Assembly (NCBI GenBank): GCA_024653965.1
Contig: JANLGW010000053.1
Location: forward strand, 8,426 to 32,425
Direction of reading: 5' to 3'
DNA from: Rhodospirillales bacterium
Lineage (GTDB): Bacteria; Pseudomonadota; Alphaproteobacteria; Rhodospirillales; Magnetovibrionaceae
Length of the DNA: 24,000 nucleotides
Within the stretch, counting starts at the first letter, position 1. Each line of letters opens with the position of its first letter. Both the position numbers and the translations under genes were made by a program. Positions 21,763-22,539 of the stretch are shown piece after piece. A model generated the notes under the pieces. The model worked only from the letters and a program-made list of their open reading frames with translations. It was not told the DNA's origin and did no database searches.

Positions 21763-22539
21763 ATGGCGAAGAGAGCTCAGAAATCGCCCGGCGGCGGGGC
21801 AGCATCAACGGGAGCAAACGCAACGAAGCCGGTTGCCCCGCAGGTGAAACCTGTGGCTACTCCCGTGGCGACGCCTTCCGCCAATGTATCTTCCAAAATA
21901 TCGCCTAAGAAGACGGCTGCCAAAAAAACGGCGAAAAAAACCGCTGCCAAACCCAAGCCTACCCTCAAGCCTGCGGAACCCATTTGGCAACCCGATGGCA
22001 ATCCAGAATTATATGGGCCGGGATTGTATGGGCCGGGACCATTTTGGTCAGGCCCGTATGGTGGGCCTTACTGGGGCGGCGGCAGTGGCGTAAACAATGG
22101 AAGTCAGGGGAATTTTCAAGCTCAACCCCAAGCCAATCCTCAGGCACAACCTCAGGCACAACCTCAGGCACAACCTCAGGCACAACCTCAGGCCAATTCC
22201 CAGGCTAACCCTCAGGCGAATTCCCCTGGCGGCGGCGGTACGCACATGGGCAAAAGCGAAAACTATCTCGATTTTTTGGCGCGCGTTTTTCAGAACATGG
22301 GCACCAATTCTTGGGATGCGCAACAATTCGACAGCGTAACGCAAGGCATGACTTTGGTGCTGGGTTCCGGCCCTGCGTTTGCCGCGTTGGAATCCATGAT
22401 GGCCAATACCACCGCGCAAAGTGCGGTGCTGATGAATGCCGTGCAGACACAGCGCCAACTCGATCAGGTGGGTCTGTGCTGTACCAGTGCTTGTGTGCAG
22501 CAATTGTTGAATATGAACAATAATCAAGATCGGGACTGA
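21763..22539 (+). CDS. Atypical 258-aa protein: Lys/Ala/Pro-rich N-terminus, Gly/Pro/Tyr/Trp-rich segment, (QAQP)n repeat and a divergent C-terminal RebB-like domain
   Basis: I chose the ATG at 21763, 6 nt after GGAGA. The C-terminal QFDSVTQGMTLVLGSGPAFAALESMMANTTAQSAVLMNAVQTQRQLDQVGLCCTSACVQQLL aligns position-for-position with MITDAVTQTNVKVLGEAPAMAMGAIYQSLSHSTGILFENAVGSQQQLAIAAQAATNQGVIQIY. The N-terminus contains KKTAAKKTAKKTAAKPKP. Confidence 0.7.
   Translation: MAKRAQKSPGGGAASTGANATKPVAPQVKPVATPVATPSANVSSKISPKKTAAKKTAKKTAAKPKPTLKPAEPIWQPDGNPELYGPGLYGPGPFWSGPYGGPYWGGGSGVNNGSQGNFQAQPQANPQAQPQAQPQAQPQAQPQANSQANPQANSPGGGGTHMGKSENYLDFLARVFQNMGTNSWDAQQFDSVTQGMTLVLGSGPAFAALESMMANTTAQSAVLMNAVQTQRQLDQVGLCCTSACVQQLLNMNNNQDRD
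22117..22224 (+). repeat. In-frame 12-nt tandem repeat, nine units (four identical CAGGCACAACCT at 22141..22188)
   Basis: The units encode QAQP QANP QAQPx4 QANS QANP QANS, and the outer units are degenerate. Confidence 0.9.

What the first reader, a model, noticed from the sequence alone, without database searches (positions are those of the whole stretch)
21763..22539. Multidomain Reb protein: histone-H1-like Lys/Ala tail, Gly/Pro/Tyr/Trp-rich segment, (QAQP)n linker and a cysteine-bearing RebB-like domain
The Reb proteins I know of are single-domain and about 80-115 aa. This 258-aa ORF ends in a clearly alignable but divergent Reb domain (DSVTQ..VLGSGPAFAAL..NAVQTQRQL..). In that domain the AAQAATNQGV helix is replaced by GLCCTSACV, which carries three Cys. 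About 170 residues of low-complexity sequence precede it: KKTAAKKTAKKTAAKPKP, then LYGPGLYGPGPFWSGPYGGPYWGGGSG, then QAQP repeats. Inference: it could be a minor subunit that caps, nucleates, cross-links (via Cys) or anchors the ribbon, or that displays the low-complexity arm on the R-body surface. I know of no described Reb protein with this architecture.
Basis: partly seen in the sequence, partly recalled or inferred. Interest (0 to 1): 0.7.

Follow-up and report, generated by a model that had tools for sequence, protein, structure and literature searches.

The report
Long-tailed, cysteine-bearing accessory R-body protein
This is a real, conserved gene in an R-body (coiled protein ribbon) gene cluster. 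It joins a long disordered, lysine-rich tail to a divergent ribbon-subunit domain carrying an unusual cysteine motif, so it is probably an accessory or adaptor subunit, of a type noted in databases but never studied.

Summary
ORF 21763-22539 (+) encodes 258 aa, with a GGAGA ribosome-binding site 6 nt upstream. Residues 190-252 match Pfam RebB above the curated cut-off (33.8 vs 24 bits). Residues 1-160 are low-complexity and predicted disordered.

The gene is under selection: dN/dS against the closest orthologue is 0.054 for the C-terminal module and 0.39 for the tail. It belongs to a narrow family: 52 clusters among 5.8 billion proteins, and 5 of 185,579 species genomes (Magnetovibrio plus one Rhodospirillaceae MAG). 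The gene always occupies the same slot in a conserved reb cluster.

Family-wide features are a basic Lys/Ala/Pro-rich N-terminus, a variable spacer, an extra amphipathic helix, and a Reb-like domain with CxxxC or CCxxxC. The Gly/Pro/Tyr/Trp block occurs only in the window protein and its closest relative. The QAQP repeat occurs only in the window.

About 145 more distant N-extended, single-Cys Reb-like clusters exist, mostly metagenomic. Longer "secondary" Reb proteins (HP1.3/S2, RapA/S4) are already published, so the architecture is a new variant of a known kind.

Most likely function: an R-body-docking accessory subunit that displays a polyanion-binding tail. This is inferred, not shown.

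The parts
21623..21649 (+). Conserved promoter-like motif TGTTCACGAA-N12-GCGTC, 114 nt upstream of the start codon
   Evidence: A related copy lies at 19405-19431, 56 nt before reb1. The degenerate motif TGWTCACRAA-N12-SCGTC recurs before the orthologous long-Reb gene in L001, L002, L003 and M. blakemorei (L005/L014), and before reb1 in L001 and L002. The block is conserved in the intergenic alignment A5. Promoter function, and recognition by the cluster's ECF sigma factor, are inferred.
21752..21756 (+). Ribosome-binding site GGAGA, 6 nt before ATG 21763
   Evidence: Read directly from the sequence. GGAGACGAT-ATGGCGAA is conserved in all three aligned upstream regions.
21763..22539 (+). Long secondary Reb gene (258 aa plus stop)
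21763..21969 (+). Basic N-terminal tail (aa 1-69), including the histone-H1-like Lys/Ala/Thr/Pro block at aa 45-69; net charge +15
   Evidence: Composition. The first 40 residues carry a net positive charge in the window protein and in 51 of 52 homologues. Lys/Ala/Pro-rich tracts are seen across the family. No secondary structure is predicted, and there is no Pfam hit.
22009..22089 (+). Gly/Pro/Tyr/Trp/Phe-rich block (aa 83-109)
   Evidence: It is shared only with the nearest orthologue P0001, where LYGPGLYGPGPFWS is identical. It is absent from other members, which have 0 Trp and 0-2 Tyr in their N-regions.
22117..22224 (+). QAQP/QANP/QANS tetrapeptide linker (aa 119-154), with a perfect 12-bp tandem repeat at 22138-22193
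   Evidence: Tandem Repeats Finder gives period 12, 4.7 copies and 100% matches; see also D2. The repeat is absent from the orthologue P0001.
22243..22308 (+). Conserved amphipathic helix alpha-0 (aa 161-182, core SENYLDFLARVFQNM), directly before the Reb-like domain
   Evidence: Conserved in alignments A1 and A3. Predicted helix 168-179 has the highest pLDDT in the model, about 81. An equivalent helix is present in distant relatives.
22309..22518 (+). Divergent Reb-like domain (aa 183-252), with invariant GxGPAFA, NAxQxQRQLD and TSxCV
   Evidence: Pfam RebB match at residues 190-252. Invariant columns. dN/dS 0.054. Predicted helical.
22477..22494 (+). Cysteine motif CCTSAC (C239, C240, C244)
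   Evidence: C244 is invariant, C240 is present in at least 90% of members, and C239 is variable. The C244 column is Cys in 51 of 72 distant relatives, whereas the C240 column is never Cys outside the family.
22576..23097 (+). Adjacent 173-aa gene: a degenerate paralogue with an N-terminal Reb-like remnant (VMGNGVGLAALESM) and a C-terminal extension. It lies 36 nt downstream and is probably co-transcribed
   Evidence: BLASTP and hhalign show local similarity to the long Reb. A 44-nt stretch of DNA is 73% similar (D6). The gene follows the long Reb in every syntenic locus; alignment A4.
19487..21490 (+). Four tandem primary reb genes (107-110 aa), the presumed major ribbon subunits
   Evidence: Pfam RebB at 97-102 bits. 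They form a 300-nt direct-repeat family, D1.
23140..23804 (+). Downstream Reb genes: a 76-aa RebD-like gene (23140-23370) and a 107-aa primary-type gene (23481-23804). The cluster runs past the end of the window
   Evidence: Syntenic loci continue with an 82-85-aa Reb, a 146-177-aa S3-like protein and a divergent ECF sigma factor.

Best explanation
The gene encodes a 'secondary' (accessory) Reb protein of an R-body gene cluster in an uncultured relative of Magnetovibrio.

Shown here:
- It is a real gene under selection, with a strongly conserved C-terminal module of about 95 residues: an amphipathic helix plus a divergent Reb domain.
- Its N-terminal region of about 160 residues evolves fast, is predicted disordered, and always begins with a basic Lys/Ala/Pro-rich stretch.
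- It holds a fixed slot in a conserved cluster, behind its own conserved promoter-like motif.

Inferred mechanism:
- The Reb-like module docks onto or into the lattice built by the primary Rebs.
- It has lost the signature QITD and KxxxD/E motifs and gained helix alpha-0 and the CxxxC motif. It is therefore more likely a low-copy edge, surface or nucleating subunit than a lattice-propagating one.
- The disordered arm projects from the ribbon, and its histone-H1-like basic end binds a polyanion, most plausibly nucleoid DNA. The protein would then act as an adaptor or tether, much as PhaM, PhaF and AlgP link PHB or polyphosphate granules to the nucleoid.
- The spacer (acidic coiled-coil-like in most members; Gly/Pro/aromatic plus QAQP here) would set the reach and is free to vary.
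For: Gene reality and constraint:
- Pfam RebB match above the gathering score.
- 52 homologues.
- dN/dS 0.054 for the C-terminal module and 0.39 for the tail, at dS 0.7-0.8.
- Between the window and L001, housekeeping proteins are about 89% identical while this protein is 61% overall and 92% in the C-terminal module.

Cluster slot:
- The order is primary Reb x2-4, then this gene, then a 108-173-aa paralogue, a 75-76-aa Reb, a primary Reb, an 82-85-aa Reb, an S3-like protein and an ECF sigma factor. It is seen in L001-3, L012, L014 and L016.
- Even a distant 153-aa relative (P0059) sits in the same slot.

Own transcription signal:
- A motif shared with the reb1 upstream region is conserved as far as M. 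blakemorei.

Likely low copy:
- One gene against at least 5 primary reb genes in the window.
- GC3 is 0.55, against 0.71-0.82 for the primary rebs and about 0.73-0.79 for most other large ORFs.

Disordered basic tail as a family trait:
-.

Lost motifs:
- QITD becomes QFDS, and the K..E of KVLGE becomes LVLGS. The motifs are as defined in PMC13430693.

Precedents from papers:
- RapA, a non-canonical reb-cluster protein, co-purifies with SDS-insoluble R-bodies at levels similar to RebP1/P2 and co-localises with RebP1 (PMC8322103).
- RebD is a minor incorporated component needed for roll formation (bioRxiv 10.64898/2026.05.21.725848).
- PhaM, PhaF and AlgP bind an inclusion with one end and DNA with a histone-like tail (PMC13052382).
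Against: - There is no direct evidence that the protein is expressed, is in the R-body, or binds DNA. R-bodies have not been reported for Magnetovibrio in the searched library.
- AF2 models are low-confidence (pLDDT about 54). No co-folding with primary Rebs could be run, so docking is inferred from homology alone.
- The H1-like resemblance is compositional only. No Pfam or NCBIfam domain matches the tail.
- Many family members pair the basic end with an acidic block. That block could neutralise the basic end within the molecule, or could point to self-association rather than DNA binding.
- Caedibacter RebC shows that an essential reb-cluster protein may not be incorporated at all.
Confidence: 0.5

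Rival explanations
1. Non-incorporated assembly factor, working like Caedibacter RebC. The Reb-like module transiently binds primary Rebs and steers them into the ordered helical lamellar pathway. The highly charged disordered arm keeps the complex soluble. The protein is absent from the finished ribbon.
For: RebC is essential for roll formation yet undetectable in isolated R-bodies. The long hydrophilic disordered region, the weak codon bias and the loss of lattice signature motifs all fit a sub-stoichiometric helper. Dorr 2026 notes that some secondary Rebs resemble RebC and may be regulatory.
Against: Raymann 2013 describes RebC as lacking homology to the other Rebs. This protein passes the RebB Pfam threshold, so the analogy is functional only. 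The family-wide conservation of a basic terminus specifically, rather than any hydrophilic tail, is not explained. RapA shows that an extended reb-cluster protein can be stably R-body-associated.
Confidence: 0.25
2. Cysteine-based latch or cross-linker. The CxxxC/CCxxxC motif, on one face of the last helix, forms inter-subunit disulfides or a shared metal site. These would lock ribbon turns or subunits together, or sense redox state to trigger unrolling after the cell is ingested or lysed.
For: C244 is invariant and C240 is present in at least 90% of members. A Cys at the C244 column is ancient in the wider N-extended clade, at 51 of 72 relatives. A Cys lies at or next to this position in Caedibacter RebD and Azospirillum S2/HP1.3. 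Primary Rebs almost never have Cys and never two (PMC13430693), so two or three conserved Cys stand out. The neighbouring 173-aa protein carries CxxC (SACRSC) here and in L001.
Against: The protein has no signal peptide, so it sits in the reducing cytoplasm, where structural disulfides are unusual. No conserved His or extra Cys ligands accompany the motif. The neighbour's Cys are not conserved in other loci. This role would not explain the conserved basic tail. It could also coexist with either of the other models rather than replace them.
Confidence: 0.12
3. It is an orthologue of a published extended Reb-cluster protein (RapA/group S4, or HP1.3/group S2) and therefore nothing new.
For: Its length and 'extended, Pro- and charge-rich N-terminus' resemble the description of S4. 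Its Reb domain aligns weakly with Azospirillum S2/HP1.3, including a nearby Cys (hhalign E = 0.0015, 32% identity over 65 columns).
Against: The family profile shows no similarity (hhalign probability 0.1%) to the 209-aa protein in the RapA position of a Burkholderia group-2 cluster. That protein is only a positional proxy for RapA. S2/HP1.3 carries its low-complexity extension at the C-terminus, not the N-terminus. Scores drop from 142 to 69 bits between this family and all other proteins in 1.84 billion representatives. In these clusters the S3-like protein is a separate gene.
Confidence: 0.05
4. A decaying reb paralogue or a mis-called ORF with no function. Alternatively, only a short product starting at Met162 (MGKSENY...) is made.
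For: Codon bias is weak. A perfect DNA repeat points to recent slippage. One database entry is a 97-aa product that starts at the internal Met.
Against: dN/dS is 0.054 for the C-terminal module and 0.39 for the tail. The full-length frame and the MA(K/N) start are conserved in all 52 homologues, as is the ribosome-binding site. The 97-aa entry is a gene-calling artefact: the same ORF in L016 extends upstream through MAQKKKKTPAVK.... The internal Met is not conserved across the family.
Confidence: 0.03

Closest known systems
RebB / 'Killing trait' family (Pfam PF11747); primary Reb proteins RebA, RebB, RebD
   Same: The C-terminal 65-70 residues are homologous and align without gaps. The GxxPA and NAV..Q.Q motifs are retained. 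The protein is predicted helical and is encoded inside a reb cluster.
   Different: It is 2.4 times longer. It has a 160-residue disordered N-terminal arm and an extra helix. QITD and KxxxD/E are lost. The Q-G-containing third-helix segment is replaced by CCTSAC. It scores only 20-35 bits against both primary-type and RebD-type profiles, so it is equidistant from the two.
Secondary Reb group S2 / HP1.3 (e.g. Azospirillum brasilense WP_237907743.1, 155 aa; H. taeniospiralis RebF)
   Same: A divergent Reb domain plus a low-complexity Pro/Gly-rich extension. A single Cys lies at or next to the C244 position (TAACA). It is encoded next to small Reb genes.
   Different: The extension is C-terminal, not N-terminal, and is not basic. 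There is one Cys, not two or three. Similarity is weak (hhalign E = 0.0015). It belongs to the 'group 1' synteny type.
RapA (PA14_27680; secondary Reb group S4) of Pseudomonas aeruginosa
   Same: A reb-cluster protein of about 210 aa, described as having an N-terminal extension rich in Pro and charged residues. It is associated with an ECF sigma factor in the cluster. It is experimentally R-body-associated, which makes it the best functional precedent.
   Different: No detectable sequence similarity to a positional RapA proxy. RapA-type proteins have no GSGPAFA or Cys motif and carry a C-terminal extension. They belong to a different cluster type.
Unnamed wider clade of N-extended, single-Cys Reb-like proteins (about 145 clusters; some named 'RebB family R body protein [Rhizomicrobium sp.]')
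   Same: The same layout: a charged N-terminal extension of 25-125 aa, an amphipathic helix, then a Reb-like domain with Cys at the C244 column. They occupy the same cluster slot.
   Different: They are shorter (93-208 aa), often have an acidic C-terminal tail and have only one conserved Cys. The best score is 69 bits, against at least 142 bits within the family.
PhaM, PhaF and AlgP (inclusion-to-nucleoid tethers with histone-H1-like tails)
   Same: Bipartite logic: one end binds an intracellular inclusion, and a Lys/Ala/Pro-rich repeat tail binds DNA non-specifically. Repeat number is variable, as in algP.
   Different: No homology. In those proteins the tail is C-terminal, and the inclusion-binding domain is a phasin or other fold. 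DNA binding is untested for this protein.

Membership tests
RebB / Killing trait (PF11747) | Profile match above Pfam's gathering score | tested here: met
   33.8 bits against a cut-off of 24, E = 3.6e-8, residues 190-252 covering profile positions 3-65 of 68. All 26 aligned family members hit RebB at E <= 0.1.
RebB / Killing trait (PF11747) | Encoded in a cluster with several other reb genes | tested here: met
   Four primary reb genes lie upstream and two Reb genes downstream in the window. The same arrangement is seen in 6 related loci.
Primary Reb proteins (Dorr et al. 2026 signature) | QITD motif flanked by two prolines; KxxxD/E pair; NAV; QQQ; about 80-115 aa; Cys rare and never two | tested here: not met
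   QITD becomes QFDS, with no upstream Pro. KVLGE becomes LVLGS. NAV is kept, and QQQ becomes QTQRQ. The protein is 258 aa and has three Cys. Criteria are taken from PMC13430693.
R-body structural component | Present in purified SDS-insoluble R-bodies, or required for their formation | not testable with these tools
   Needs proteomics or genetics. No R-body report for Magnetovibrio was found in the library.
Secondary Reb group S4 (RapA) | At least 40% identity to seed WP_003108962.1 (Dorr's rule), or detectable homology to RapA-type proteins | tested here: not met
   hhalign of family profile A3 against the 209-aa protein in the RapA position of Burkholderia pyrrocinia gave probability 0.1%.
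Secondary Reb group S2 (HP1.3 / RebF) | Reb-like N-terminal domain followed by a Pro-rich C-terminal extension; group-1 synteny | tested here: not met
   Domain similarity is weak (E = 0.0015, 32% identity). The extension is on the opposite end. The cluster here has an ECF sigma factor and a different gene order.
Histone-H1-like inclusion tethers (PhaM / PhaF / AlgP type) | Lys/Ala/Pro-rich repeat tail | tested here: met
   aa 45-69 carry +10 charge in 25 residues made of K, A, T and P. Similar tracts occur across the family. This is compositional resemblance only; no profile match was found.
Histone-H1-like inclusion tethers (PhaM / PhaF / AlgP type) | Non-specific DNA (or polyphosphate) binding, and an effect on inclusion position or number | not testable with these tools
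   Requires EMSA and deletion phenotypes.

The most novel reading that the evidence does not exclude
The protein is the first dedicated positioning or tethering factor for R-bodies. Its Reb-like module is built into the ribbon at an edge, or at the nucleating inner turn. Its histone-H1-like tail ties the ribbon to the nucleoid or another polyanion. The family-specific CxxxC motif acts as a redox- or metal-sensitive latch that releases or locks the coil. This would extend the PhaM/PhaF/AlgP 'inclusion-to-nucleoid' principle to a mechanical protein machine. It would also contradict the published generalisation that cysteines play no part in R-body architecture.
Probability: 0.15. Interest if true: 0.65.

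Novelty: new variant of a known kind. Interest (0 to 1): 0.42.

Why it matters
R-bodies are pH-actuated protein springs. They have roles in killing and virulence and are used in protein engineering. How accessory proteins control their nucleation, size, position and actuation is still open: RebC, RebD and RapA have only recently been examined.

This family offers a clean natural example of a Reb domain fused to a long, rapidly evolving disordered arm with a conserved basic end and a conserved cysteine pair. If it is incorporated, it marks a site where cargo or handles can be displayed on an R-body. It would also give a testable candidate for nucleation, capping or tethering.

It also shows that published Reb surveys, which bin such sequences as 'unknown', and automatic gene callers, which truncated one member to 97 aa, under-describe this class.

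M. blakemorei MV-1 is cultured and carries an orthologue, so experiments are feasible.

Tried and rejected
- Exact-sequence look-up of the window protein found nothing on record.
- tblastn of the C-terminal module against 72,556 plasmids gave no match.
- NCBIfam has no model that hits it.
- PDB sequence search found no related solved structure (best E = 0.054). The tail's QANP repeats hit the Plasmodium circumsporozoite NANP repeats, which I treat as compositional, not homology.
- AF2 on the full-length protein and on the C-terminal module both gave pLDDT of about 54. I therefore ran no fold searches, since low-confidence models give meaningless matches.
- I scored the domain against RebD-type and primary-type profiles, after noticing QLDQVG resembles RebD's QLNQIG. 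Scores were equally low for both (20-35 bits), so I claim no specific RebD affinity.
- RapA/S4 identity was rejected. S2 identity was rejected on domain order.
- A Sec or Tat signal peptide was rejected by eye: no hydrophobic stretch is visible in aa 1-44 of the sequence. No signal-peptide predictor was run.
- A lanthipeptide-like reading of CCTSAC was dropped because no modifying enzymes appear among the genes with Pfam hits in the related clusters.
- My first two promoter patterns were mis-specified, with a wrong spacer and then a wrong 3' box, and were corrected. The single extra hit in the window is not significant on its own (expected 0.94). The argument rests on its position and its recurrence in related loci.
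Full report
**1. Observation**

The ORF at 21763-22539 (+) is present as described. It starts at ATG, preceded by GGAGA 6 nt upstream, and encodes 258 aa (26.7 kDa, pI 9.5). The protein divides into these segments:

| Residues | Segment | Note |
|---|---|---|
| 1-44 | Pro/Ala/Thr/Val-rich stretch | net charge +5 |
| 45-69 | KISPKKTAAKKTAKKTAAKPKPTLK | net charge +10 |
| 70-82 | short acidic stretch | |
| 83-109 | LYGPGLYGPGPFWSGPYGGPYWGGGSG | |
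| 110-118 | short Asn/Gly-rich stretch | |
| 119-154 | nine QAQP/QANP/QANS units | partly a perfect 12-bp repeat, 4.7 copies, at 22138-22193 |
| 155-160 | Gly hinge | |
| 161-182 | amphipathic helix | core SENYLDFLARVFQNM |
| 183-252 | Reb-like domain | Cys at 239, 240 and 244 |

- Pfam RebB (PF11747) matches residues 190-252 at 33.8 bits, E = 3.6e-8, above the gathering score of 24. The primary Rebs of the window score 88-102 bits and the 76-aa Reb scores 61 bits.
- AlphaFold2 with a 26-sequence alignment predicts no secondary structure for residues 1-165. It predicts helices at 168-179, 186-201, 204-215 and 224-256, at low confidence (mean pLDDT 54). The C-terminal module modelled alone is also all-helical and low-confidence.

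**2. It is a real gene and belongs to a family**

- A search of 5.8 billion proteins found 52 homologues of 148-272 aa. Three are from Magnetovibrio, one of them already named 'RebB family R body protein'.
- An exhaustive HMMER search of 1.84 billion cluster representatives, using the profile of the C-terminal module, found 17 family representatives at 142 bits or more. Scores then drop sharply to 69 bits.
- Among one genome for each of 185,579 species, only five carry it: four Magnetovibrio and one Rhodospirillaceae MAG, the latter with a short 137-aa version. Magnetovibrio belongs to Magnetovibrionaceae, Rhodospirillales.
- Against the closest orthologue (P0001 in L001), dN/dS is 0.054 for the C-terminal 100 codons and 0.39 for the N-terminal region, at dS 0.7-0.8.
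- Between the same two genomes, glutamine synthetase and the aminotransferase are about 89% identical and the 76-aa Reb is 98.7% identical. This protein is 61% identical overall and 92% in the C-terminal module. The tail therefore evolves much faster than the genome average, while the module is tightly constrained.
- All 52 homologues begin with Met followed by Ala or Thr and a basic stretch. The first 40 residues have net positive charge in the window protein and in 51 of the 52.
- One apparent exception, a 97-aa entry, is a gene-calling artefact. The ORF in that contig continues upstream through MAQKKKKTPAVKSAAKKKPRARKK.

**3. Family traits versus lineage-specific traits**

Conserved across the family:
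- The basic Lys/Ala/Pro/Thr-rich N-terminus.
- Helix alpha-0.
- The motifs GxGPAFA, NAxQxQRQLD and TSxCV.
- C244 (invariant) and C240 (at least 90% of members). C239 varies.

Variable:
- In most members the spacer is an acidic, Ala/Glu-rich, coiled-coil-like stretch.
- The Gly/Pro/aromatic block is shared only with P0001.
- The QAQP repeat is found only in the window.

**4. Context**

- The gene always occupies the same slot: 2-4 primary reb genes, this gene, a 108-173-aa protein, a 75-76-aa RebD-like protein, a primary Reb, an 82-85-aa Reb, a 146-177-aa protein with a QILDAV motif (homologous to Azospirillum's S3/HP1.2-type protein), and a divergent ECF sigma factor. The window ends inside the cluster.
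- The 173-aa neighbour (22576-23097) is a degenerate paralogue. VMGNGVGLAALESM matches VLGSGPAFAALESM at the protein level and at the DNA level (73% over 44 nt).
- A motif TGTTCACGAA-N12-GCGTC lies 114 nt upstream of the start. A related copy precedes reb1. The motif recurs at both positions in L001 and L002, and before the orthologue in M. blakemorei. This suggests the gene heads a second, co-regulated transcription unit; that is an inference.
- GC3 is 0.55, against 0.71-0.82 for the primary rebs and about 0.73-0.79 for most other large ORFs. This is compatible with lower expression.

**5. Relation to known proteins**

- The premise that Reb proteins are all short is dated.
  - Raymann et al. 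2013 mention HP1.3, a distant Reb homologue about twice the normal length, and the HP2.1/2.2 proteins of about 205-220 aa.
  - Dorr et al. 2026 define secondary groups S1-S4. S2 has a Pro-rich C-terminal extension. S4 (RapA) has an N-terminal extension rich in Pro and charged residues.
  - RapA co-purifies and co-localises with P. aeruginosa R-bodies.
- I tested membership.
  - The family profile has no similarity to the protein in the RapA position of a Burkholderia group-2 cluster (probability 0.1%).
  - It aligns weakly with Azospirillum S2/HP1.3 (E = 0.0015), which carries its extension at the other end.
  - It is equidistant from primary-type and RebD-type profiles.
- There is a wider, essentially undescribed clade of N-extended Reb-like proteins. 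The search returned 145 clusters at E <= 1e-5, a few of them members of the family itself; the rest are mostly metagenomic, and some are named RebB family in Rhizomicrobium MAGs. They share the layout, the cluster slot and a Cys at the C244 column (51 of 72 representatives). None has Cys at the C240 column. CxxxC/CCxxxC is therefore specific to the Magnetovibrio-type family.
- A Cys also lies at or next to this position in Caedibacter RebD and Azospirillum S2, whereas major Rebs have Q-G there. Dorr et al. state that Cys is rare in primary Rebs and never occurs twice.

**6. Mechanism**

- Shown: homology, constraint, disorder, charge pattern, synteny and a conserved upstream motif.
- Inferred:
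  - The conserved module docks on the primary-Reb lattice.
  - Loss of QITD and KxxxD/E, and gain of alpha-0, argue against a lattice-propagating role. They favour a low-copy edge, surface or nucleating position.
  - The conserved basic H1-like end argues for binding a polyanion. The closest functional analogues are PhaM, PhaF and AlgP, which tether granules to the nucleoid through histone-like tails.
- I give this adaptor or minor-subunit model about 0.5. A RebC-like non-incorporated assembly factor gets about 0.25. A primarily Cys-based latch or cross-linker gets about 0.12. The remainder goes to identity with a known group, or no function.

**7. Verdict**

This is a new variant of a known kind: secondary Reb proteins. 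It is of moderate interest mainly because of the conserved basic tail, the family-specific cysteine pair, and the availability of a cultured host (M. blakemorei MV-1) in which to test it.

Noticed in passing
window 22576-23097 (+): The 173-aa gene just downstream is a degenerate paralogue of the long Reb (VMGNGVGLAALESM; 73% DNA similarity over 44 nt). It has a C-terminal extension, a CxxC (SACRSC) and an invariant C-terminal ...VT across five loci. It has no Pfam or NCBIfam hit and follows the long Reb in every syntenic cluster.
   Followed up: partly
window 19405-19431 and 21623-21649 (+); L001 7784-7810 and 9872-9898; L014 4687-4713: A shared promoter-like motif, TGWTCACRAA-N12-SCGTC, lies upstream of reb1 and of the long Reb gene. 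It is conserved in related genomes and may be the target of the cluster's ECF sigma factor (ECF237-type neighbourhood in PMC7826278).
   Followed up: partly
window 21530-21561 (+): A conserved GC-rich hairpin, GACCGCCGC...GCGGCGGTC, lies directly after the fourth primary reb gene and has no T-tract. It is conserved as far as M. blakemorei (alignment A5). It could be an attenuator, a processing site or an mRNA stabiliser.
   Followed up: no
window 19852-19876 and 20310-20338 (+): Strong terminator-like hairpins with T-tracts follow reb1 and reb2. This suggests graded read-through, and so graded expression, along the tandem primary reb genes.
   Followed up: no
window 14382-15497 (+): A 371-aa ORF has unusually low GC (0.46, GC3 0.49, against about 0.60 and 0.75 for its neighbours) and no Pfam hit. 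In the syntenic relative L001 this position holds different small genes (155 aa, 183 aa and an HTH protein). It may be a recent insertion.
   Followed up: no
window 10205-10987 and 11042-11791 (+): Two adjacent paralogous genes each encode an FKBP-type PPIase fused to a rhodanese domain.
   Followed up: no
L016 2689-3294 (Logan SRR32023279 contig): The public gene call for this family member is truncated to 97 aa, and a spurious 150-aa ORF is called on the opposite strand over the low-complexity N-terminus. Automatic annotation can therefore hide the extension.
   Followed up: yes
L015 3092-3337 (Caedibacter RebD); L011 7744-8211 (Azospirillum S2/HP1.3): Both carry a single Cys at or one residue from the column of C244 in the last Reb helix (TSVACE, TAACA). 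Major subunits RebA and RebB have Q-G there. A conserved Cys may be a general mark of minor or accessory Rebs.
   Followed up: partly
window 22117-22224 (aa 119-154): The QANP/QAQP repeats give E = 2e-7 hits to the NANP repeats of the Plasmodium circumsporozoite protein in the PDB. I treat this as a compositional resemblance between tetrapeptide repeats, not homology.
   Followed up: no
L001 12376-12819; L008 2833-3366: The last cluster gene before the ECF sigma factor (147-177 aa, beyond the end of the window) has a QILDAV/QIIDAV Reb-like start after an acidic, Pro-rich leader. It resembles Azospirillum's S3/HP1.2-type protein, making it another secondary Reb in this cluster type.
   Followed up: partly
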